64,000 bases of DNA from Motiliproteus sp. (lineage in GTDB: Bacteria; Pseudomonadota; Gammaproteobacteria; Pseudomonadales; Balneatricaceae). The stretch spans positions 765,194 through 829,193 of the forward strand of contig NZ_OZ246016.1 in the NCBI RefSeq assembly GCF_965230735.1, written 5' to 3'. The notes under the pieces were generated by a model. The model was not told the DNA's origin, searched no databases, and was given only the letters and a program-made list of their open reading frames with translations. A program made the position numbers and the translations under genes. This document shows positions 1,409-22,698 of this stretch, one piece after another (within the stretch, counting starts at the first letter, position 1; each line of letters starts with the position of its first letter).

Positions 1409-2597
1409 AGGCCAGCGCCGCCGTCAGCGCCAAAATCAACAGCGATCCCAATACCACCCCATTCCATCCCTGGGCCTGCCAGAACCGGTCCAGGTAGAAG
1501 CCCCCGCTGGCGGCTCCCAGGTAATAGCAGACCAGATAGAGCGACGAGGCGCTGGCCCGGGCATGCTCGGCGTTGCGGTTGACCCAGGCGCTGCAGACCG
1601 AGTGGCAGATAAAGAAGCCAAAGCTACTGACCAGCAACCCCAGCACGATGGTTGGTAGAGCCTGGTATAGCGTCAGTAGGGAGCCGAGCATCATGATCAG
1701 CACCCCGGCCAGCATGCAGTCCGGTTGGCCAAAGCGCTGGCTCAATTTGCCCGATACCGCCGAGCCCAGCGAGCCGCTCAGGTAGGTTAGAAACAGCATT
1801 CCCAGCCAGCTGGGAGCCAGCTCGAACGGCGCATCACTGAGTACATAGGTGATGTAGCTGTACTGGTTGGAGAAGATAAAGAAATTCAGACCCCCGATCA
1901 GGTAGGCGGTCACCAGCAGCGGATTGCGCAGGTGGCCGGCCAGATCGGTCGCCATGGTTTTCGGCCTGAGCGGGCGGGGTTGGAAGTGCTGCGACGGCGG
2001 TAGCAGCCAGGCCACCAGCGCCACGCCCAGCAGGCTGAGAACGCCAAGCAGATAGAAGGCGCTGTACCAGTCTAGCCAATCGGTGACAAAGCCACCCACC
2101 AAGCGACCGCTGATGCCGCCCAGCGAATTGGCACTGATATAGAGCCCCACCGCCAGCAGCAGCGCCGGGCGCTCGAACTCATCCCCCATGTAGGCGATCG
2201 CGATCGCCGGTAACCCGCCCAACAGCAGTCCCTGCAGCATCCGTAGCGCCAGCAGCGAGTCGTAACTTTGTGTCAGCGGGAGCAGCAGGCTCAGGACGCT
2301 GGATCCGAATAGGGTCAGCAGCATGATCCGGCGCCGCCCCAGTGCATCCGACAGCGGCCCGTAGACCAGCAGCGACAGGCCCAGGGTCAGCATCGGCAGG
2401 GCCAGCGACCAGGTGGCCTGTAGATCGGTCAGCTCGAACTGGGTCCGCAGCAGCGGAAACAGCGGCTGGGTGATGTAGAGGTTGGCGAACACGATAAAGG
2501 AGCCCAGGCACAGGGCTAGGGTAGCGCGGGTAAAGGCGGTGGTGCCGGTTTGGATCATGCTGGGCTTCATCGAGTCAGTGGGATAGCGGAGCTCCAC
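1341..2597 (-). CDS. MFS transporter (YnfM/YybF-like)
   Basis: About 12 hydrophobic segments, motif A GPLSDALGRRRIM, NLYITQPLFP, ASASSLYL. True start may be ATG 2570 or 2558. Confidence 0.85.
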   Translation of the reverse strand: MELRYPTDSMKPSMIQTGTTAFTRATLALCLGSFIVFANLYITQPLFPLLRTQFELTDLQATWSLALPMLTLGLSLLVYGPLSDALGRRRIMLLTLFGSSVLSLLLPLTQSYDSLLALRMLQGLLLGGLPAIAIAYMGDEFERPALLLAVGLYISANSLGGISGRLVGGFVTDWLDWYSAFYLLGVLSLLGVALVAWLLPPSQHFQPRPLRPKTMATDLAGHLRNPLLVTAYLIGGLNFFIFSNQYSYITYVLSDAPFELAPSWLGMLFLTYLSGSLGSAVSGKLSQRFGQPDCMLAGVLIMMLGSLLTLYQALPTIVLGLLVSSFGFFICHSVCSAWVNRNAEHARASASSLYLVCYYLGAASGGFYLDRFWQAQGWNGVVLGSLLILALTAALAFSLRYRLRRAADLSTATPAQAG

Positions 2598-2626
2598 TGT
2601 AGGTCAATCCAGTGAATATCAAAAAT

Positions 2627-2650
2627 ATATAATCTCTATAGAATTTATAG
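2627..2650. promoter_or_regulatory. Probable LysR binding sites (T-N11-A) in the divergent MFS/LysR intergenic region
   Basis: Palindrome CTATA-GAATT-TATAG (2636-2650) plus adjacent TATAATCTCTATA. Confidence 0.4.
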
Positions 2651-2697
2651 CGAGTTGGTATAGTGTCTGCATTAGCAGAGTTGGTTGAGAGCGAGCG

Positions 2698-3573
2698 ATG
2701 GACCTACGCAAACTACGCATCTTTGTCGAAGTGGCCCGCCACGGCAGCTTCAGCGGCGCCGCCCGGGCGTTGCCACTGGCCCAACCGGCCGTCAGCGTGG
2801 CGGTGCAGAAGCTGGAGCAGGAGCTGGACCTGCTGCTGTTTCACCGTCACGACCGCCGTATCAGCCTGACCTCCGAGGGGAAGGTACTGCTGCAGCATGC
2901 GCAGCGGATGCTGGAGGACCTGCGCCAGGCCCAACTGGAGATGGATGAGCTCAAGGGGCTGCGCAAGGGCGAGGTTCGGATCGGCATTCCGAGCATGCTC
3001 GGTACCTACTATTTTCCCGAGCTGCTGATGGCGTTCAAGCAGCGTTATCCACAGCTCAAGCTATCGGTGGAGGAAGCCGGTGCCCGGGATATCCAGCAGA
3101 TGATCGATGCCGGCGAGCTGGATATGGGGATTATCGTACGGGAGCAGTTACCGGAGTCGCTGGAAGCTGAGCTGTTCCTGCGCGAGCAGATGGTGGTCTG
3201 CCTGCCGCCGGAGCACCCCTTAGCGGCCCAACCGAGCGTCAGTTTCGAGCAATTTTTCGCCGAGCCGCTGGTGCTGTTCAAGCCAGGTTATTTTCATCGC
3301 GCCTTTATCGATCGGTTGGCCCAGCAGACCGAGCTGCCGATGCAGATCGAGTTTGAAACCAACTTGATTCCGCTGATTCGTAAGATCGTCCGCAAGGGGT
3401 TCGGGGTCACCACCTTCCTGGCGATGGTGGCCGAGGGGGATTCGGAACTGGCGGCACGGCCGTTCAGTGAGCCGGTCTGGCTGGACCTCTGTATCGCCTG
3501 GAAACGGGGCGCCTATCTGTCCCATGCCGACCGCAGTTTCGTCGAGTTTTTGCTCGAGCACAGCCGGGTCTGA
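2698..3573 (+). CDS. LysR family transcriptional regulator
   Basis: N-terminal HTH (LRIFVEVARHGSFSGAARALPLAQPAVS) and LysR substrate-binding domain; divergent from the MFS gene. Confidence 0.95.
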   Translation: MDLRKLRIFVEVARHGSFSGAARALPLAQPAVSVAVQKLEQELDLLLFHRHDRRISLTSEGKVLLQHAQRMLEDLRQAQLEMDELKGLRKGEVRIGIPSMLGTYYFPELLMAFKQRYPQLKLSVEEAGARDIQQMIDAGELDMGIIVREQLPESLEAELFLREQMVVCLPPEHPLAAQPSVSFEQFFAEPLVLFKPGYFHRAFIDRLAQQTELPMQIEFETNLIPLIRKIVRKGFGVTTFLAMVAEGDSELAARPFSEPVWLDLCIAWKRGAYLSHADRSFVEFLLEHSRV

Positions 3574-3761
3574 GCCGATCAATTCGCTGTATTAATTAAT
3601 TTCAATACTTGATTGAAAACTTTCAACGCCATTCATGCTGCGACAGCGCTGCATTGATCAATCTTTATGCTATGATTGCCGCCCATTTTTGAAGCAGCCC
3701 GCGGATTCCGGAGTGAGCCTGGAGTGTACCGCCGGCAGGAAAGTTTGAGGTCGTTGTTGCC

Positions 3762-4994
3762 ATGAGCAAGATTACATCCCTGGACAAGAGCAAGATTAAG
3801 TTTCTGCTGCTTGAGGGCGTTCACCAATCCGCCGTCGATACCCTGAAGGCGTCCGGCTACAGCAACATCGATTACCTGACCACCGCGCTGCCGGAAGACG
3901 AGCTGATCGAGCGGATCAAAGACGCTCACTTTGTCGGTATCCGTTCCCGGACTCAGCTCAACGAGCGGGTGTTCGAAGCGGCGTCCAAGCTGATGGCGGT
4001 GGGTTGTTTCTGTATCGGTACCAACCAGGTTGATCTGAACGCGGCGATCGCCAAGGGTGTGACCGTGTTCAACGCGCCCTACTCCAACACTCGCTCGGTG
4101 GCGGAACTGGTGATTGCCGAAGCGATCATCCTGATGCGTGGCGTGGCCGAGAAGAATGCCAAGGCCCACCGTGGGGTCTGGAACAAGTCGGCTTCCAACT
4201 CCTATGAAGTTCGTGGCAAGAAGCTGGGCATCATCGGCTACGGTTCGATCGGTTCTCAGCTGAGCGTGATGGCCGAATCCCTGGGTATGGAAGTGATCTT
4301 CTACGATACCGTCACCAAGCTGCCGCTGGGTAACGCCAACCAGGTAGGCTCGCTGAAAGAGCTGCTGAACCAGGCCGACATCGTCAGCCTGCACGTGCCG
4401 GAAAGCCCGTCGACCAAGAACATGATCGGTCCGCAACAGCTGGAGCAGATGAAGCCGGGCTCGATCCTGATCAACGCTGCCCGCGGTACCGTGATCGAGA
4501 TCGATGCGCTGTGCGAAACCCTCAAGACCGGCAAGCTGCTGGGTGCGGCGATCGACGTGTTCCCGGTTGAGCCCAAGTCTAACAGCGAAGAGTTCGTCTC
4601 GCCGCTGCGTGAGTTCGACAATGTGATCCTGACCCCGCACGTCGGTGGCTCCACCATGGAAGCGCAGGAGAACATCGGTTTTGAAGTGGCCGAGAAACTG
4701 GTCAAGTACTCCGATAACGGCTCCACCATCACCTCGGTCAACTTCCCCGAGGTGGCCCTGCCGGCGCATCCGGACAAGCACCGCCTGTTGCACATCCACG
4801 AGAACGTGCCGGGCGTGATGACCGCGATCAACCATGTGTTCTCCGATAACAATATCAACATCTCCGGTCAGTACCTGCAGACCAACGATAAGGTCGGTTA
4901 CGTGGTGATGGATATCGATGCCGAGCACTCCGATCTGGCGGTCAAACAGCTCAAGCAGGTGCCGGGCACCATCCGCTGCCGGGTACTGTTCTAA
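3762..4994 (+). CDS. serA: D-3-phosphoglycerate dehydrogenase
   Basis: GIRSRTQL, GCFCIGTNQVDL, NAPYSNTRSVAELV, LTPHVGGST and C-terminal ACT domain; E. coli-type SerA. Confidence 0.97.
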   Translation: MSKITSLDKSKIKFLLLEGVHQSAVDTLKASGYSNIDYLTTALPEDELIERIKDAHFVGIRSRTQLNERVFEAASKLMAVGCFCIGTNQVDLNAAIAKGVTVFNAPYSNTRSVAELVIAEAIILMRGVAEKNAKAHRGVWNKSASNSYEVRGKKLGIIGYGSIGSQLSVMAESLGMEVIFYDTVTKLPLGNANQVGSLKELLNQADIVSLHVPESPSTKNMIGPQQLEQMKPGSILINAARGTVIEIDALCETLKTGKLLGAAIDVFPVEPKSNSEEFVSPLREFDNVILTPHVGGSTMEAQENIGFEVAEKLVKYSDNGSTITSVNFPEVALPAHPDKHRLLHIHENVPGVMTAINHVFSDNNINISGQYLQTNDKVGYVVMDIDAEHSDLAVKQLKQVPGTIRCRVLF

Positions 4995-5202: not shown

Positions 5203-7035
5203 ATGGCCATGCCTTTATCGATACTGCACCAACGCCTTTCGAACTGGATCCTGGTGGCGATTGCTCTACTGCTGGCCGCCCTCTCCCTGCTATGGCTGAT
5301 TATCACCACCGCCTCTGAACGCCAGGATCAGGCTGCCGCCGAGCAATACCGGCAGCAGGTCGACTCGGCCTTGAACTACGAGATCAAGGGCTTAGGCACC
5401 CATGCGATGGATGCCGCCTGGTGGGATGAAGCGATCCGGAACCTGGTGCAACAGCCTGACCCGGACTGGGGCCAGAGTAATATCGGCGCCTATCTGGATG
5501 AGGAGTTCGGGATTCCGATCTCGATGGCGATCGATCAGCACGACCGCCTGCTGCAGGGGTTTGTCGATTCGGAACCGATGCAGCATTTTGAGCCCTTTGC
5601 CGACAGCCGTTCACTGGCGATATTGATTCAGCAGGCACGGGCTAGTTCACTTCAGGACCCGGAAGGGTTCGGCGGTTTGATCGAAGTGGCCGGACAGCTC
5701 TACGTTGCCGGGGTGGCCCCTTTTACCACCGAAGAGGTCGCCGACGATGATGTCCGCAGTGGCGAACTGTTCAGTGTGCTGGTGTTTTTAAAGCGCTTTG
5801 ACGCCGACTATGTCGACGGCTTCTCTGAGCGCTTTTCGCTGCAACTGACCGGTATCAGACCTTATGCCGGTAACAACAGTCTGCCGATGACCACCTTAAC
5901 GGGTAATAATCTCGGCCACCTGCATTTCTCCCCGCCGACACCGGGCCTGCACCTGATCGATTCGATCCTGCAGCCGGTATTGCTGTTCAGTGCGGTGCTG
6001 GGGGCGATGTTCCTGCTCAATGCCTACTTCAGTTTCCGTACCGCCCGACTCAGCCAATTGTTGGAAATAGAACACAAACAGTTACGGCAGACCCGTTTCG
6101 AACTGAAGATCAATCAGGAGATTATCGGTTCGATCAAGGAAGGGGTGGTCGTGGTCGATGAGCAGTATCTGATCACCTATACCAATCCCGCCTTCAGCCG
6201 AATCACCGGTTTCTCTGACGCAGAAGTGATCGGTAAACGTGCGCTGATGGACCCGAGGATCGACGTCAGTAAATCGCTATATCAGCAGATGCAGCAGGCG
6301 ATTGACGAGCAGGGTAACTGGGAACATGAGATTAACGCGCAGCGCAAAGATGGGACGAACTATACCCTGAGCATGTCGGTCAGCCCGTTGATCGATCAGG
6401 GGCAGTGCAGCAGCGAGCTGGTGGGAATCTTCACCGATGTGACCGAGCGCAAGCAGCAGGAGCGACTGCTGGAGAAGCTGGCCAATCAGGATACCCTGAC
6501 CGAACTGTTGAATCGGCGTAGTTTCAAGCAGCGGGTGGAGCAGAAGATTGAGCGGGCGGGGCGTCACCCCGATACCCGATTGGCGTTGCTGTTTATCGAC
6601 CTGGACCTGTTTAAGGAGGTCAACGATTCCTACGGGCACGAGATTGGCGATCAACTGCTGATCGAGATTGCCGTGAGAATCCGGCGCTGCCTGCGCGCCT
6701 ATGACACGGTTGGCCGCATCGGCCTTGAGGAAGCGACAGCGCAAGTGAGCGGCGCCCTGGTCGGGCGGGTCGGCGGTGATGAATTTACCATCGCGATTGA
6801 CGAGCTTGCCGGCCAGCAAGATCTGGAGCGGGTGATCCAGCGCCTGCTCGAGCAGATTGAACAGCCCTTAACCCTTGCGGGCCAACAGGTGGCGGTGACC
6901 GCCAGCATCGGGGTGGCTATCTACCCGGAAGACGGAGGCAGTTATGCCGACCTGATCCGCCATGCCGATAAAGCGATGTATCGTTCCAAGCAGGGCGGGC
7001 GCAACCGCTCCTGCTATTACTCCGACCCGGTCTGA
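5203..7035 (+). CDS. Membrane diguanylate cyclase (CHASE4-PAS-GGDEF)
   Basis: Two TM segments flank a CHASE4-like region (DAAWWDEA). PAS (ITYTNPAFSRITGFSDAEVIG), DTLTELLNRR, FIDLDLFKEVNDSYGHEIGD, GGDEF, ADKAMYRSK; no EAL domain. Confidence 0.9.
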   Translation: MAMPLSILHQRLSNWILVAIALLLAALSLLWLIITTASERQDQAAAEQYRQQVDSALNYEIKGLGTHAMDAAWWDEAIRNLVQQPDPDWGQSNIGAYLDEEFGIPISMAIDQHDRLLQGFVDSEPMQHFEPFADSRSLAILIQQARASSLQDPEGFGGLIEVAGQLYVAGVAPFTTEEVADDDVRSGELFSVLVFLKRFDADYVDGFSERFSLQLTGIRPYAGNNSLPMTTLTGNNLGHLHFSPPTPGLHLIDSILQPVLLFSAVLGAMFLLNAYFSFRTARLSQLLEIEHKQLRQTRFELKINQEIIGSIKEGVVVVDEQYLITYTNPAFSRITGFSDAEVIGKRALMDPRIDVSKSLYQQMQQAIDEQGNWEHEINAQRKDGTNYTLSMSVSPLIDQGQCSSELVGIFTDVTERKQQERLLEKLANQDTLTELLNRRSFKQRVEQKIERAGRHPDTRLALLFIDLDLFKEVNDSYGHEIGDQLLIEIAVRIRRCLRAYDTVGRIGLEEATAQVSGALVGRVGGDEFTIAIDELAGQQDLERVIQRLLEQIEQPLTLAGQQVAVTASIGVAIYPEDGGSYADLIRHADKAMYRSKQGGRNRSCYYSDPV

Positions 7036-7178
7036 GTCACTGCGCCAACAAACCACTGCTGATCCCGTCTAGACTGAGTTTATAGACTGCTTTCTAAGGA
7101 ACCTGCGAATAAGCGGTTTCTGCAAGTGCGAGACGCTGGCAAGGACTTCTTGGCAGGCTCCTTAACAAGGAGGCGCCT

Positions 7179-8255
7179 GTGAACGTTATCCGCCCGATCG
7201 AGCGGGATGACCTGAGCGCGTTGCTGCGGATTGCAGAGCTCAGCGGGCCGGGCTTCACCTCGTTACCGCTGCATCCGGAACTGCTGGAGCAGCGAATCAA
7301 CCAATCCATTGCGTCGCTGCAACAGGCGTCAGGGCGATTCGACGGCGATCACTACCTGTTTGTGCTCGAGCACGGTGAAACCGGCGAGGTGATCGGTACC
7401 ACCGCCATCGCCTCCCGGGTTGGAATGCAGGACCCCTGGTATCACTACCGGATCGGAACTGTGGTTCATGCCTCGCGGGAGATGGGAATCCACAACCGCT
7501 TCAATACCCTCTATCTGTGCAATGACTACACCGGTCACTCGGAGGTCTGCAGCCTGTTTCTGGACCCCGCCTACCGCCGTGATCGCAATGGCACCTTGCT
7601 ATCGAAATGCCGGTTTCTGTTTATGGCGCAGTTTCCGGAGCGGTTTGCCGAGCGCGTTATCGCCGAGATGCGCGGAGTTTCCAACGACGCCGGAGACAGT
7701 CCGTTCTGGGAAGGTCTGGGGCGGCACTTCTTCAGCATGGAGTTCTCCGAGGCGGATTACCTGACCGGATTGGGAAATAAGTCGTTTATCGCCGAGTTGA
7801 TGCCCAAGCACTCGATCTACATTCATCTGCTGCCCGAGAGCGCGCAGCAGGTGATCGGTGAAGTTCATCGCAATACCCGCCCGGCCCGCAAAATGTTGGA
7901 GGATGAGGGTTTTCACTTCGAAGGCTACGTCGACATCTTCGATGCCGGACCGACCCTGATCTGTCGGCTCAATGATATTCGCAGCGTCAGTTACAGCGAG
8001 CAGCAACGCCTGGCCAAGGTGGTGAAAAAACTCCCCCCGGGACAGGCTTGTTTGCTGGCCAACACCCGGTTGCAGGGTTACCGCTGTATTTTGACCGAGT
8101 TGCCCTATTTCCCCGAAGGAAAGCTGCAACTTAGCCGGATCCAGGCCGACGCGCTGCAGGTTGAGCCGGGCGATGGGTTGCGGCTGGTGCCGTTGGCGCT
8201 GACCCGTAAACGAGCCGCCGCCGAGCCGGACTCTGATGGCTCTGCAAGCGGCTAG
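7179..8255 (+). CDS. astA: Arginine N-succinyltransferase
   Basis: SGPGFTSLP, YHYRIGTVVHAS, LCNDYTGHSEVCSLFL, IAEMRG, SPFWEGLGRHFF, YVDIFDAGP. Confidence 0.9.
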   Translation: MNVIRPIERDDLSALLRIAELSGPGFTSLPLHPELLEQRINQSIASLQQASGRFDGDHYLFVLEHGETGEVIGTTAIASRVGMQDPWYHYRIGTVVHASREMGIHNRFNTLYLCNDYTGHSEVCSLFLDPAYRRDRNGTLLSKCRFLFMAQFPERFAERVIAEMRGVSNDAGDSPFWEGLGRHFFSMEFSEADYLTGLGNKSFIAELMPKHSIYIHLLPESAQQVIGEVHRNTRPARKMLEDEGFHFEGYVDIFDAGPTLICRLNDIRSVSYSEQQRLAKVVKKLPPGQACLLANTRLQGYRCILTELPYFPEGKLQLSRIQADALQVEPGDGLRLVPLALTRKRAAAEPDSDGSASG

Positions 8256-8354
8256 CTGGTGGCTCAATGGCGGTTGGATGGGTGTTTTTACTGGCAAAGC
8301 CTCGGATTCAACGCTAACTTCAGGGGCTCGATTTAATGGACAAAAAGGCGATGG

Positions 8355-9131
8355 ATGGCGGTGTTTGAACTGCAGATATTGGGCGTTGGTGGGGGGATCT
8401 CCCACATCTACCAGAGCGAGTGCTCCAGCAGCCTGCTGTTGCTTCGCCATCAACAGCCCTGGGCGCTGATCGATCTGGGACTGGGGGTGGTCGATGCGCT
8501 GCATCGGCAGGGATGGAGCCTGCCTGAGCGGGTGCTGATCAGTCATAACCATACCGACCACGCCGGTGAGTTGCCGGTGGTTTTGCGGGTTGAACAGGCG
8601 GCCGGACGACGGCTGCAGGTCCTGGCCGAGACTGGCGTCTGCCAGCGGTTGATCGAGCATCGAATGGCCGAGCATGCACAGTTGATTGATCCCCATGAGC
8701 TGGCCGAATGGCGGTCCGCCGAGGCCGGTGAGCGCGTCGATTTGGGGGCTGGTCTGACACTGGAGTGGCTACCGACCCGGCACAGCGAGCGTTGCTTCGG
8801 ATTTTTGCTTTATCTGGAGGGCGCTCCGTTACTGGGTTACAGCGCCGACAGCGGTGAGCTGACCTCGCTTTATCAGCGGTTGTGTGAGGCGCCGACGGTG
8901 ATCTTTGATGCCCGTGAAACAGGGAGCGACTGGCATGCGGGATTCGATCAGATTCAGCCCTGGTTGGCAGCGGGACGGTATTTGATCAGCCATGGTATTC
9001 CGGCAGAGCAGCAACCGGACTACCGATACCGGGGACGGCGGCTACCGTTGTTGCAGCCTGGCCAGCGATTGGTTCTCGGTACGGCAACGCGCGGCGAGCC
9101 TGAGGGCGAGCATAGGGAGGTGAATCGATGA
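8355..9131 (+). CDS. MBL-fold metallo-hydrolase (RNase Z / cNMP phosphodiesterase-like)
   Basis: LGVGGG start, LIDLG, HNHTDH metal motif, TRHS, YSADS, late HA and SHG. Confidence 0.8.
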   Translation: MAVFELQILGVGGGISHIYQSECSSSLLLLRHQQPWALIDLGLGVVDALHRQGWSLPERVLISHNHTDHAGELPVVLRVEQAAGRRLQVLAETGVCQRLIEHRMAEHAQLIDPHELAEWRSAEAGERVDLGAGLTLEWLPTRHSERCFGFLLYLEGAPLLGYSADSGELTSLYQRLCEAPTVIFDARETGSDWHAGFDQIQPWLAAGRYLISHGIPAEQQPDYRYRGRRLPLLQPGQRLVLGTATRGEPEGEHREVNR

Positions 9132-18995: not shown

Positions 18996-19999
18996 TCAGC
19001 GATTCTTACTGATCCATTTTTGCAGCCGCCACTGTCCTTCGATCCACTTTCCCGGTAGCAGTATGGCTCTTAAAAGGCCCTGCTTAAATTGATCGCTGGT
19101 GCCTGAAGGAATCTCCATCGATGGGTCACAGTAGCTGCGATATAGTCGTTGCCAGCCCAAGTGAGACAGGTAAGTGATGCGCCCGCTGAGACGGTTGGCT
19201 CGCTCATCATCCGCAAACTTGCTGTTCAGTCCCAGGCCGATAGTCTCGGGCTCGCCGACGACAAGGTTATTGGCATAACAGATATCGCTGATACGCTTTA
19301 ACCGATCAGAGTATTCATGCAGGTGTTGGAGTTCGATGCTGGGATCGAATTTCTGCAAGGCGGCAAGCCAGAACTTCTGCGTGCAATCCGGTGGGAAGTA
19401 GGGGCTGCCCAAGCCTTGGACTTTCCCCAATCTGTCGGGATCGAGCTGATAATCCTCAAACAGAGCTAGATCCCAAAGTACCAGCAGGTCTTCGGTCAGA
19501 CCAAAATAGAAGAAGTCGCAGGCGTGAAACACCACCGGCATCCCCTTGGCGTATTCGCGGGTAAAGGTGTTGTTGACCACCACCCGTTCTTTCAAGAACG
19601 CATACTCGGGGTGACGCTGGCTGAACTGCTGTTGCAGGGTCTTAAACTGATCCCCGACCAGGAAATTATCCGAGCGAAGCTTCATCGCATAGCGGTCTTG
19701 ACCCGTTTCAACCCTTCCCGGGATGAGACGATCTGGCGATTGTTGTTGAGCTTGCCGGGGGTGCCATCGGCCAGATAGCGGTAGATATTGGGGCCGGGAT
19801 CCTCACAGATGACGAGTTCATCGTAATCCAGCCCTTGCAGATTTTGATCTGGCCAGGTCGACAGAATGATGTGGGCGCCCGGCAGGTACTGCCGAATACT
19901 TTGGAGACTACGATAGGTGATCCCTTCGTCCATTGGGCGGTCGTCCCGCGCTTGGACCGGTCCTTGAACGACGACACTGATGTCTGCATTGTTGATCAT
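18996..19999 (-). pseudogene. wavE: WavE LPS synthesis protein, frameshifted into two ORFs (19682-19999 and 18996-19685)
   Basis: ISVVVQGP, IILSTW, NNNRQIVSSREGL end in KTAMR*, and the next ORF starts MKLRSDN. Adding one C (ACC GCT to ACC CGC T) gives continuous KTRYAMKLRSDN and a 334-aa protein. Confidence 0.85.
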
Positions 20000-20718
20000 G
20001 GTGTTTGCTTCAGTACCGCTTGGTATTCATCGGGAGTGCCGCAGAAGATCACTTCTTCGGGGTCAATGACCGAGTAACGGATATCCTTAGCATCACGAAT
20101 GGCCAGGTTGTATATCGGGGCGATATAGAGCTCTCCCGCGTCCAGTCGATCGGTTTCGAACTGGCTGTACTCTTGATAGTAGTGGCGGTATAGCTCGGCG
20201 CTGGCCCAATGGTAAAGACCGGTGCAACAGAACTCCGAGATCTCCTGCTTTTCAGCGGTTCGGATTACCCGGTCGGAGCCCGGGGCCTGTGGCTCGATAT
20301 TGCTCCAGTTCTTACCTGAACCGATAAAGGTTTCCAGATAGCCATCGGCTTGATCACAGAACCCGGGCTTGCGGTAGTTGGGGCGGAAGGTATCAATATT
20401 GAAGATATACAGCGGTTCGTCGGTCAGCCCATCCAGCCCCAACGCCACGGTTTCTGCCTGGCCGCCGGTGGGTTGATTCAGGATAACCAGCTGGTAATCG
20501 CGAATACCCAACCGTTTGGCCTCGGTCTCGACAAAGGCGGGAGTATCAAACTGATCTCTGACGATAAACAGGAAGGGGTCGGTGTCAAAATAAGCGCTGA
20601 AGCTGCATACCGAGTGGGCAAACAGACTCTGACCATGGGCGTCGAGCTTGTACTTGGGTTCGGTATAGCCGGCACTGAAAAAGCGCGACGACATTCCAGC
20701 CATCGGTATCACGAACAT
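19996..20718 (-). CDS. Nucleotidyltransferase/GT-A fold capsule/LPS biosynthesis protein (BcbG-like)
   Basis: VIPMAGMSSRF, PKY, TGGQAETV, IFNIDT, CTGLY, GELYIAPIYN, FCGTPDEY. Confidence 0.75.
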   Translation of the reverse strand: MFVIPMAGMSSRFFSAGYTEPKYKLDAHGQSLFAHSVCSFSAYFDTDPFLFIVRDQFDTPAFVETEAKRLGIRDYQLVILNQPTGGQAETVALGLDGLTDEPLYIFNIDTFRPNYRKPGFCDQADGYLETFIGSGKNWSNIEPQAPGSDRVIRTAEKQEISEFCCTGLYHWASAELYRHYYQEYSQFETDRLDAGELYIAPIYNLAIRDAKDIRYSVIDPEEVIFCGTPDEYQAVLKQTP

Positions 20719-22305
20719 GGCTGTTCTCCTTGAAGTTCGGCGTAGAGACGATAGGCATTTGCCAGCATGGTCATCTGTCGTTCCGGCTGGTCATTGTGAA
20801 GCGGAAGCATCGACAGAAAAAGCTGGACTCCAATGGCTTGAACGCAATCTTGAAGTTGTGGCTGGTCGCTGAAGAAGACTTCATTAAAGGCTTGATTGAT
20901 CCCCAGATGATAGGTTGCCGCATAGTCGCGTAACTCCAATCCGGAATCCGTCTGTTTGGCCTTGAGGCGGCCAGCAATGATCAGGTCATAGAGACCGTGC
21001 ACGGAATGGTAAAGCTTGGCGTAGTCATAACGGCTGTCGCCATAGAGGGTCGGTCTGCCTTGCGCATCGATGCCCCTTGGGTCGATAACTTTGATCCGAC
21101 GGGTGCGGAAGTCGTAGAGGATGTTGCTGAAGCAAAAGTCGCCATGAACGATCGCAACATTCTGCAGGGTTGCTGCCGGAATCCGCTCGCTACTCTGTTC
21201 GGCAATGTCACGAGGTGATGGATACAGGGTGCCATTGAGATGAATCGGCTTATCGATATCAACACCGCTGTGGATGGCGAACTGTTCCAACCTGTCCAGG
21301 GTTTTGGGTAGGTACAGTGAATCAATGTCAGTGGGATGAAGTTCACTGGACTCCGGCGAATAGGCTTTACAGCGGGCTAGGAAGCGGTGGCAGGATTGGA
21401 AGATTCGACGCCAGGAGGCCTTTGCCAGATGACCGAAGACGAACAGATCGCTGAGCGGGAGGTTGTAGAGGTACTCCAGCGAATAGCCGGCACGGTCACC
21501 GTCATTGAAACGGCTTAGCAGCTTGGGGCTGTAGATCTGGATATCATTGGGAAGAGCTTCAAACCAGTTCGCTTCACCTTCCATTTTGTCCACTTTGTGG
21601 CTGGATTTACGCGCGGTGCTGCGATTGATTTCCAGTGCATTGAAGCTGCGCTGAGTGGTAAAGGCGGCTCTCGAATTGAAGTAGGCGTTCAGATGGCCGA
21701 AATCGAACCAATCATTGGCCTGCACCAGGCTGATTTCAAGCTGTTCGTGGTATCGGTTGATCGCACCGATAAAATCGCCCCGTTGTTGGGTCAGATGGCG
21801 GACTAGCTTAAGAGAGGAAGAAAAACTGAAATAGCCGCTGGCGACGATATCGCCGTCAACAGCCAACTGCCAACTGCTCGTCCAGTAATTGCGCTGAATG
21901 CTGTTGGCTTAATGCACGACGGTAATATCCGGAGTTGGGAGAGATACTGACCAGATCGTTTCCTTTCGGAAGGTTCTGGAAAAGTGTGTCGCCGTGCAGA
22001 ATCTGTAATTGAGAGTTTCCACACTGTGCCATATTCAGACAATAAAGCACCGACTCTCCCAAGCTCAGCCCCTCGGGCACGGTAATCAGCTTAACGCTAT
22101 GCTCGGCAATGAATGCCTGTTCATAGTCGCTCAGTTCAAAACTCTCCGGAATCGACAGGTAGATATCATCAGAGAGGGGTTCTGCCAGAGCGATCTGGTA
22201 TTCGTACAGACAGCGATTCCCCAGCGGTAGAAAGCTGGGAGGAAGGCACCCCAACTCGCTGGCAAACTCCTGGCTGATATAAGCCCCGGAAGTGATCAGG
22301 AACAC
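20709..22305 (-). pseudogene. NTP-transferase-like + APH/choline-kinase-like fusion (BcbE-like), split by a 7-bp duplication
   Basis: 5' ORF (LITSGAY, LPPSFLPLGN, ILHGDTLF) and 3' ORF (WFDFGH, HGDFCFSNIL, VIDPRG, LFLSMLPLH). Removing one GCCAACT copy gives ...DEQLAVDGDIVASGY... and one 529-aa ORF. Confidence 0.85.
21862..21877. repeat. 7-bp tandem repeat GCCAACT x2.3 causing the frameshift
   Basis: GCCAACT GCCAACT GC read directly at 21862-21877. Confidence 0.9.
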
Positions 22306-22698
22306 TCAATTGCCCTCTTTCAAGCGCTGGGCTTCATCTGCGAGCAGCTTGTCGATTTGTACGGGCTCCAAGCTGGCAAACTCACTGGGTCGAATCGCTT
22401 TGTTATCAACGTAGAAACCTTCAAAGCCGCACCAGGGCTTGCCTACTTGAACCTCATCGTAGGGAACCCGATGCCGGTCAAGCCATTCCAGTATGGTCGG
22501 TAACGTATGTACATTGATCTTGCCGATGTCGCCTTGATACGTACGCATATTGCGGGCGGTGGCAATACAGATCTCGAACCCCTGTTCTTTGTAGTGGCGT
22601 AGCTTCTCGATAACCGCTAGGTTCGGCTCTTTGGACTCGTAAGGGCCGGGCTTGTCTATCGTCAGGGTGCCGTCCAGATCGATAACCAGTTTTTTCAT
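22306..22698 (-). CDS. HAD-IIIC capsule biosynthesis phosphatase (EcbF/BcbF family)
   Basis: VIDLDGTL, ATARNMRTY, KPWCGFEGFYVDNKAIRPSEF; its TGA directly abuts the GTG of the next gene. Confidence 0.85.
   Translation of the reverse strand: MKKLVIDLDGTLTIDKPGPYESKEPNLAVIEKLRHYKEQGFEICIATARNMRTYQGDIGKINVHTLPTILEWLDRHRVPYDEVQVGKPWCGFEGFYVDNKAIRPSEFASLEPVQIDKLLADEAQRLKEGN

What the first reader, a model, noticed from the sequence alone, without database searches (positions are those of the whole stretch)
21862..21877. 7-bp tandem duplication switches off the NTP-transferase/kinase fusion
Seen: GCCAACT x2.3; deleting one unit fuses 21856-22305 and 20709-21866 into one 529-aa ORF. Inference: a clean 7-bp duplication is unlike a homopolymer read error, so it is probably a real slipped-strand mutation. 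It could revert by precise loss of one unit, giving ON/OFF variation of an LPS decoration, a classic phage-receptor escape route.
Basis: partly seen in the sequence, partly recalled or inferred. Interest (0 to 1): 0.65.

Follow-up and report, generated by a model that had tools for sequence, protein, structure and literature searches.

The report
Seven-base duplication breaks an LPS gene
A marine bacterium (genus Motiliproteus) carries a seven-base tandem duplication that knocks out a sugar-activating enzyme gene in its lipopolysaccharide core locus, and a second frameshift in the same four-gene module points to ordinary recent gene loss, not a proven on/off switch.

Summary
On the coding (minus) strand the sequence reads GAG-CAGTTGG-CAGTTGG-CTGTTGAC. 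Every relative has seven fewer bases there. One unit fewer gives a 529-aa protein that lines up without a gap with about 530-aa homologues, including the intact 527-aa gene at the same position in Motiliproteus sediminis.

The break lies in a beta-hairpin turn inside the N-terminal nucleotidyltransferase-like domain, so it probably inactivates the enzyme.

The lesion is young. All 104 conserved family positions are kept in the two pieces.

It is unlikely to be an assembly error. Among 161 orthologues compared with M. sediminis, the only true frame breaks are this gene and its operon partner wavE, which has a C3-to-C2 contraction.

The repeat is not a designed switch tract:
- It has two perfect copies beside one imperfect copy.
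- It is not conserved in relatives.
- Period-7 repeats of this length occur at about chance frequency in the genome.

Loss of one unit could in principle restore the frame, as in the pneumococcal capsule and E. coli malT precedents. With wavE also broken, that alone would not restore the module.

Verdict: a recent null allele in a decaying LPS-decoration module. It is a known kind of event and of modest interest.

The parts
21857..21877 (-). Heptamer array. On the minus strand it reads GCAGTTG GCAGTTG GCTGTTG: two perfect units and one imperfect unit. One perfect unit is the extra 7 bp relative to all relatives.
21856..22305 (-). N-terminal fragment (149 aa) of the broken fusion gene. It holds about 70% of the nucleotidyltransferase-like domain and ends ...EQLAVGC*.
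20709..21866 (-). C-terminal fragment (385 aa as listed from a TTG). It holds the rest of the nucleotidyltransferase-like domain plus the APH-type kinase domain (PF01636).
22306..22698 (-). HAD phosphatase of the EcbF/BcbF capsule-biosynthesis family (TIGR01689, 190.8 bits against a cut-off of 162). It is the intact first gene of the module.
19996..20718 (-). Intact 240-aa partner protein with no family hit. Its start overlaps the fusion gene's stop. It is conserved beside the fusion gene in M. sediminis, Citrobacter and E. coli plasmids.
18996..19999 (-). wavE (PF07507), split into 105-aa and 229-aa ORFs by loss of one C. Relatives read ACC CGC TAC; the window reads ACC GCT A at 19694-19695.

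Best explanation
This is a real and evolutionarily recent slipped-strand mutation.

Inferred ancestral state and event: the gene read GAG CAG TTG GCT GTT GAC (E-Q-L-A-V-D). That sequence already held two near-identical heptamers, GCAGTTG GCTGTTG (6 of 7 bases). Replication slippage added one more GCAGTTG unit.

Shown from sequence: the +7 shift ends translation three codons later (…AVGC*). It cuts a 529-aa enzyme in a beta-hairpin turn in the middle of its N-terminal nucleotidyltransferase-like domain.

Inferred consequences: the enzyme is inactivated. About 1.1 kb of untranslated message probably also lowers expression of the two translationally coupled downstream genes.

Context: the gene belongs to a four-gene module (EcbF/BcbF-type HAD phosphatase, this fusion, a 240-aa partner, WavE) embedded in the LPS core/lipid A locus. 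The module presumably activates and attaches a non-essential core decoration whose chemistry is unknown. wavE carries an independent -1 frameshift, so the module as a whole is being lost in this lineage while the core backbone genes stay intact.

Reversibility: the duplication could revert by precise loss of one unit. Nothing shows that it acts as an evolved switch.
For: - Extra 7 bases and perfect collinearity once one unit is removed.
- Intact syntenic orthologues: M. sediminis has a 527-aa fusion gene and a 340-aa WavE, and 10 of 12 locus genes are collinear and intact in the window.
- The genome has a single copy and no paralogue.
- An AlphaFold2 model of the closest homologue (pLDDT 92.7) places the break between strands 143-148 and 153-161. 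The N-domain runs to about residue 215.
- Foldseek matches APH kinases and sugar-1-phosphate nucleotidyltransferases such as VTC1, UGPase, HddC and MurU.
- All 67 invariant and 37 near-invariant family columns are kept in the two pieces, so the lesion is young.
- The assembly looks sound: one 3.96-Mb contig, 99.25% completeness, mean ORF 316 aa, 91% ORF coverage.
- Among 161 orthologues compared with 400 kb of M. sediminis, the only true frame breaks are this gene and wavE.
- The wavE lesion is a C3-to-C2 contraction relative to three relatives.
- Locus context: hldE, hldD, waaF, Wzy_C ligase-like gene, GT4 x2, waaA, GT9, Kdo kinase, msbA-like ABC transporter, lipid A acyltransferase.
Against: - No reads could be examined, so reality and clonality of the duplication rest on indirect argument.
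- No same-species second genome or metagenome contig exists to show the one-copy allele.
- Loss of function is inferred from a model of a 66%-identical homologue, not measured.
- Because all conserved residues are retained, continued selection cannot be excluded. That would fit a switch, or a gene that is really intact.
Confidence: 0.7

Rival explanations
1. It is a working reversible ON/OFF switch. Gain and loss of one heptamer toggles the LPS decoration in the population, for example to escape phages, as with tandem-duplication phase variation of pneumococcal capsule genes or 'leaky' malT resistance in E. coli.
For: - Short tandem duplications do revert precisely. The malT 25-bp duplication reverts at 2.3-2.7e-5 per generation, and a 6-bp duplication mutant also gave revertants (PMC6112682).
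- Pneumococcal capsule genes vary by duplication and excision (Waite 2001 and 2003, as cited in PMC4022640).
- All conserved residues of the broken gene are intact.
- The target is a surface-glycan gene.
- Family members are independently disrupted in other lineages.
Against: - There are only two perfect units. For inserts of 9 bp or less the expected reversion frequency is at most about 1e-5 (PMC4022640).
- The heptamer pair is not conserved in relatives.
- Such repeats occur at chance frequency in the genome.
- wavE in the same operon has a separate -1 frameshift in a C3 run, which reverts far less readily. Losing the unit would therefore not turn the module back on.
- No alternative allele was found.
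Confidence: 0.12
2. It is an assembly or consensus artefact. The organism really has one unit and an intact gene.
For: - A single-contig assembly implies long reads, which make indel errors.
- The companion wavE lesion is a 1-nt homopolymer change, a typical error type.
- The pieces show no decay at all.
Against: - A perfect 7-bp non-homopolymer duplication is not a usual read-error type (general knowledge).
- Genome ORF statistics are normal.
- No other frame break was seen among about 156 other orthologues, so two random errors landing in one 3-kb module is improbable.
Confidence: 0.1
3. The gene is split but still works. Either the two pieces are both made, with re-initiation at the TTG 11 nt upstream of the stop, and assemble. 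Or the ribosome shifts +1 at the site.
For: - The cut falls in a surface turn between two strands.
- The two ORFs overlap, and between them they hold every residue of the intact protein.
Against: - There is no Shine-Dalgarno sequence before the weak TTG start.
- There is no known +1 shift signal. The site is UGU UGA C, unlike the prfB type (general knowledge).
- The local DNA shows no significant structure (z = 0.17).
- The cut separates strands of one core sheet.
- No homologue is built as two genes at this point. Of the 120 best hits, 115 are single chains of 514-576 aa.
Confidence: 0.04

Closest known systems
Tandem-duplication phase variation of Streptococcus pneumoniae capsule genes (cap3A, cap8E/wchA, tts; Waite et al. 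2001 and 2003, cited in PMC4022640)
   Same: A spontaneous perfect tandem duplication inside a surface-polysaccharide biosynthesis ORF causes a frameshift null. It is in principle reverted by precise excision of one copy.
   Different: - In pneumococcus both states and the switching were observed. Reversion frequency there is discussed in relation to insert length, with at most about 1e-5 expected for inserts of 9 bp or less.
- Here only one state is seen and the unit is 7 bp.
- A second lesion sits in the same operon.
- The organism is a Gram-negative marine bacterium and the target is an LPS core decoration, not a capsule.
E. coli malT short-duplication alleles giving 'leaky' phage-lambda resistance (Chaudhry et al. 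2018, PMC6112682)
   Same: A short tandem duplication (25 bp, also 6 bp) knocks out a gene needed for a phage receptor and reverts at a high rate.
   Different: - Reversion was measured there (2.3-2.7e-5 per generation).
- Here no phage, receptor role or reversion is known.
Classical simple-sequence contingency loci, e.g. Haemophilus influenzae licA (CAAT repeats in a choline kinase gene of the lic1 LPS-decoration operon; from general knowledge)
   Same: A repeat inside the 5' half of an LPS-decoration gene sets the reading frame. LicA (an APH-like kinase) with LicC (a nucleotidyltransferase) is a functional analogue of the kinase/nucleotidyltransferase fusion here.
   Different: - Contingency loci carry many units (often more than 10), and the tracts are conserved across strains.
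- This tract has 2-3 units and is absent from relatives.
- Multi-copy arrays do exist elsewhere in this genome, but not here.
HAD / kinase-nucleotidyltransferase / 240-aa cassette of capsule loci (Pasteurella multocida EcbF/BcbF family; E. coli K4 region 2, where kfoE is linked to fructosylation, PMC10609508)
   Same: - The HAD protein passes the TIGR01689 EcbF/BcbF cut-off.
- The same three-gene cassette sits in a Citrobacter Kps-type capsule locus and on E. coli plasmids.
   Different: - Equivalence of the fusion protein to KfoE/BcbE rests on earlier unchecked notes. It was not tested here.
- The substrate is unknown.
- Here the cassette is joined to WavE inside an LPS core locus.

Membership tests
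Frameshift by tandem duplication (slipped-strand insertion) | The extra bases are an exact copy of the adjacent bases, and their length is not divisible by 3. | tested here: met
   CAGTTGG CAGTTGG; 7 extra nt relative to L031, L001, L002 and L003.
Frameshift by tandem duplication (slipped-strand insertion) | The ancestral gene is a single ORF through the site. | tested here: met
   Of the 120 best homologues, 115 are 514-576 aa. The syntenic M. sediminis gene is 527 aa.
Phase-variable contingency locus (SSR type) | A multi-copy repeat tract long enough for high slippage rates. | tested here: not met
   Two perfect units and one imperfect unit. Runs of this size occur at chance frequency in the genome.
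Phase-variable contingency locus (SSR type) | The tract is conserved, or variable in copy number, among relatives or strains. | tested here: not met
   Relatives lack the repeat. No same-species sequence was found.
Phase-variable contingency locus (SSR type) | Both ON and OFF alleles are present in a population or in the reads. | not testable with these tools
Waite-type reversible duplication switch | Precise excision restores function. | tested here: inconclusive
   The frame would be restored. wavE in the same operon is independently frameshifted, so restoration of the pathway is doubtful. No reversion data exist.
Nucleotidyltransferase-like / APH-kinase fusion family ('capsular biosynthesis protein', about 530 aa) | Full-length collinear homology and retention of the family's conserved residues. 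| tested here: met
   66% identity over the C-terminal piece to P0002 (E = 1e-172). 67 of 67 invariant and 37 of 37 near-invariant columns are kept.
Nucleotidyltransferase-like / APH-kinase fusion family ('capsular biosynthesis protein', about 530 aa) | Two-domain fold: sugar-phosphate nucleotidyltransferase-like N-domain and APH-like kinase C-domain. | tested here: met
   PF01636 matches 28 of 37 members, and NTP-transferase Pfam families match 4 of 37. AF2 model and Foldseek hits support the fold. Catalytic activity was not tested.
WavE (PF07507) | Match to the Pfam profile above the gathering score. | tested here: met
   The two fragments cover profile positions 1-97 (140 bits) and 100-285 (153 bits).

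The most novel reading that the evidence does not exclude
A free-living marine gammaproteobacterium uses, or at least benefits from, a Waite/malT-type revertible 7-bp duplication to toggle a lipopolysaccharide core decoration made by a still-uncharacterised phosphatase/kinase-nucleotidyltransferase/WavE module. On this reading the wavE C-run change is either a sequencing error or a second, slower toggle. The culture would then hold a minority of one-copy, decorated cells.
Probability: 0.1. Interest if true: 0.5.

Novelty: new member of a known kind. Interest (0 to 1): 0.22.

Why it matters
On its own this is an ordinary natural null allele. It has three modest uses.

1. It shows, with a within-genus control, that this strain has recently lost a four-gene LPS-core decoration module while keeping the core backbone. 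M. sediminis keeps the module intact. The two species form a natural pair for finding out what the uncharacterised HAD / kinase-nucleotidyltransferase / 240-aa / WavE cassette adds to LPS.
2. It adds an environmental example to the recurring pattern of short tandem duplications hitting surface-glycan genes.
3. It warns annotators that the 385-aa 'phosphotransferase' and the 149-aa ORF are two pieces of one pseudogene.

Tried and rejected
- Sister strains: a DNA search of 40 relatives and a protein search of 80 family genomes found only M. sediminis, at about 67% DNA identity. The 5.8-billion-cluster protein search gave no hit above 66% identity. An exact-pattern scan of metagenome contigs that accepted either allele found nothing.
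- Local DNA structure as a cause of slippage: the fold is not better than shuffled sequence (z = 0.17), so this was rejected.
- Repeat as a statistical anomaly: rejected, since counts are at chance level.
- Natural two-gene design: rejected. The few short homologues start at other positions or lie on broken or low-coverage contigs.
- Programmed frameshift: no slippery or stimulatory signal is visible, so this was given low weight.
- PDB sequence search of the family: no relatives. A fold search was needed instead.
- Literature searches for wavE, bcbF and ecbF were swamped by unrelated words and gave nothing on the module's chemistry.
- Three other apparent 'split' genes in the orthologue screen turned out to be two antisense shadow ORFs and an ftsY with a separate 42-aa upstream ORF.

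Full report
**What is there**

The plus strand at 21857-21877 reads CAACAGC CAACTGC CAACTGC. TRF calls it a period-7 array of 3.0 copies at 92% match. On the coding (minus) strand this is GAG CAGTTGG CAGTTGG CTGTTGAC.

Two minus-strand ORFs meet here and overlap by 11 nt: 21856-22305 (149 aa, ending ...LLDEQLAVGC*) and 20709-21866 (385 aa, listed from a TTG). Removing one unit in silico gives a 529-aa frame reading ...LLDEQLAVDGDIVASGYFSF....

**Is it more than chance?**

The repeat alone is not. The 3.96-Mb genome has 240 perfect heptamer doublets (241 expected). It has 16 period-7 runs of 16 nt or more (11.3 expected).

The evidence that this is a real insertion is comparative.
- A search with the 385-aa piece found 4383 relatives. 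Among the 120 best hits, 115 are 514-576 aa. The exceptions besides the window's own piece are 367, 387, 416 (partial) and 498 aa.
- In an alignment of 13 of them, both window pieces align end to end. The junction falls on the conserved stretch EQMAVDGDVVASGYF with no gap.
- At the DNA level the closest relative (66% identity over the C-terminal piece, a MAG contig) reads GAGCAGATGGCTGTCGATGGCGAT. The window reads GAGCAGTTGGCAGTTGGCTGTTGACGGCGAT.
- The window therefore has exactly seven extra bases, identical to the neighbouring seven.
- The inferred ancestor, GCAGTTG GCTGTTG, was already a 6-of-7 imperfect doublet. That is a plausible seed for slippage. Relatives do not share this near-repeat.

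**Organism and locus**

The window lies in a single-contig genome of 3,955,599 bp, 57% G+C and 99.25% completeness. The only same-genus genome with the gene is the one whose contig is Motiliproteus sediminis HS6 NODE_7, so the genus is Motiliproteus.

M. sediminis has the same 12-gene arrangement. Ten of those genes are intact and collinear in the window at 64-87% identity. Two are split across frames: this gene (527 aa in M. sediminis) and wavE (340 aa in M. sediminis).

The surrounding genes are a standard LPS core/lipid A locus:
- Kdo/WaaP-family kinase, GT9 heptosyltransferase and WaaA
- an MsbA-like ABC transporter, lipid A acyltransferase and a GT2
- the four-gene module
- two GT4 glycosyltransferases and a Wzy_C ligase-like protein
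- WaaF, HldD, HldE and a SIS-domain (GmhA-like) protein

Within the module, stops and starts abut or overlap (TGA-GTG; ATG 8 nt before the stop; ATGA). This suggests one translationally coupled operon.

**The broken protein**

Pfam finds an APH-type kinase domain in the C-terminal piece and in 28 of 37 homologues. NTP-transferase families match the N-terminus in 4 of 37. No solved structure is related by sequence.

An AlphaFold2 model of the closest homologue is confident (pLDDT 92.7, pTM 0.90). It shows an alpha/beta N-domain to about residue 215, followed by the kinase. Foldseek matches APH(3') kinases and sugar-1-phosphate nucleotidyltransferases (VTC1, UDP-glucose pyrophosphorylase, HddC, MurU, IPCT).

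The break corresponds to A148-V149|D150 of the model. That is the turn between strands 143-148 and 153-161, well inside the N-domain. The 149-aa product therefore lacks about 30% of that domain and the whole kinase. The second piece has no Shine-Dalgarno sequence and only a TTG start.

Loss of function is inferred, not measured. The genome has no second copy.

The kinase + HAD phosphatase + nucleotidyltransferase logic resembles known activation routes such as AmgK/MurU, LicA/LicC and the heptose pathway (general knowledge). The substrate is unknown. Earlier scan notes suggest a link to the fructose branch of E. coli K4. I confirmed only three things:
- The HAD protein passes the EcbF/BcbF model.
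- The HAD-fusion-240-aa cassette recurs in a Citrobacter Kps-type capsule locus and on E. coli plasmids.
- A review cites kfoE for fructosylation.

**Age of the lesion**

All 67 invariant and 37 near-invariant columns of a 37-member family alignment are retained in the two window pieces. Neither piece has a further stop. The frameshift is therefore much younger than the split from M. sediminis.

**Artefact or real?**

The argument is indirect.

Genome-wide ORF statistics are normal: 3817 ORFs, mean 316 aa, 91% coverage, and 51 ORFs of 1000 aa or more.

As a direct control I took 297 ORFs of 150 aa or more from 400 kb of M. sediminis and compared them with this genome.
- 161 had likely orthologues.
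- 143 of these were full length.
- 13 differed only at the N-terminal start call.
- 5 appeared split.

Of the five, two are antisense shadow ORFs. One is ftsY preceded by a separate 42-aa ORF. That leaves only the fusion gene and wavE as true breaks. Two breaks in one four-gene module, against none in about 156 other genes, is not what scattered consensus errors would give. It is what mutations in a dispensable or counter-selected pathway would give.

The wavE lesion is a C3-to-C2 contraction. Three relatives read ACC CGC TAC and the window reads ACC GCT A. Taken alone that could be an error. The 7-bp duplication is not a usual error type.

**Switch or decay?**

Short duplications do revert.
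- The E. coli malT 25-bp duplication reverts at 2.3-2.7e-5 per generation, and a 6-bp duplication mutant also yielded revertants (PMC6112682).
- Pneumococcal capsule genes vary by duplication and excision. Inserts of 9 bp or less are expected to revert at no more than about 1e-5 (PMC4022640).
- Microhomology-mediated tandem duplications are described as rapidly reversible, though detected about 20-fold less often in E. coli than in fission yeast (PMC8639346).

So "in principle revertible" is fair. Four points argue against an evolved switch:
- The tract has two perfect units and is not conserved.
- Its frequency is at chance level.
- No alternative allele exists in any collection searched.
- The second frameshift in wavE means that losing the unit would not restore the module.

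Family members are also broken independently in Endozoicomonas sp. ALC020 (182 + 367 aa, at a different site) and on a low-coverage metagenome contig. This fits frequent loss of such accessory surface-glycan genes.

The module is rare in the family. Only 2 of 81 genomes carry it, both Motiliproteus.

**Other readings**

A programmed +1 shift, or a functional split with re-initiation, has no supporting signal. The site is UGU UGA C, there is no SD sequence, and local structure is not significant (z = 0.17).

**Verdict**

- It is most likely a real slipped-strand duplication that inactivates the gene.
- The ON/OFF and phage-escape reading is unproven. The second lesion makes it less likely.

This is a new instance of a known kind of event. 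Earlier notes of this scan list several similar short duplications in polysaccharide genes. I did not test those notes.

Noticed in passing
window 19682-19700 (lesion at 19694-19695): wavE, the last gene of the same operon, is frameshifted by loss of one C from a CCC run. M. sediminis and two other relatives keep that run (ACC CGC TAC).
   Followed up: yes
genome C1:3129708-3129747, outside the window: Octamer CTAGCGAC x5 lies between two same-strand ORFs (234 aa and 156 aa). It has many more units than the finding's tract and may be a simple-sequence switch.
   Followed up: no
genome C1:1953382-1953423 and C1:2881113-2881147, outside the window: Heptamer arrays TGATTCC x6 and GCAACGG x5 lie in or next to intergenic regions upstream of small ORFs. 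They are possible promoter-spacing repeats.
   Followed up: no
genome C1:870144-870263, about 41 kb beyond the window end: Hexamer CTGAGC x20 encodes a (PE)n acidic repeat in the A-domain of ftsY. In this genome a separate 42-aa membrane ORF precedes ftsY. In M. sediminis the same peptide is in frame with ftsY.
   Followed up: partly
L036 (Endozoicomonas sp. ALC020, CP184830.1) 2489-4104: The homologous fusion gene is also broken there (182 + 367 aa). Its N-terminal part is 68% identical to a congener's protein and its C-terminal part 94%, which suggests a recombination mosaic at the break.
   Followed up: partly
L037 (Citrobacter freundii CP097107.1) 5609-8364; E. coli plasmids NZ_CP071075.1 and NZ_CP103510.1: The HAD (131 aa), fusion (540 aa) and 245-aa cassette sits in a Kps-type capsule locus next to KpsC/KpsS-like genes. 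It also occurs at 71% DNA identity on four E. coli plasmids.
   Followed up: partly
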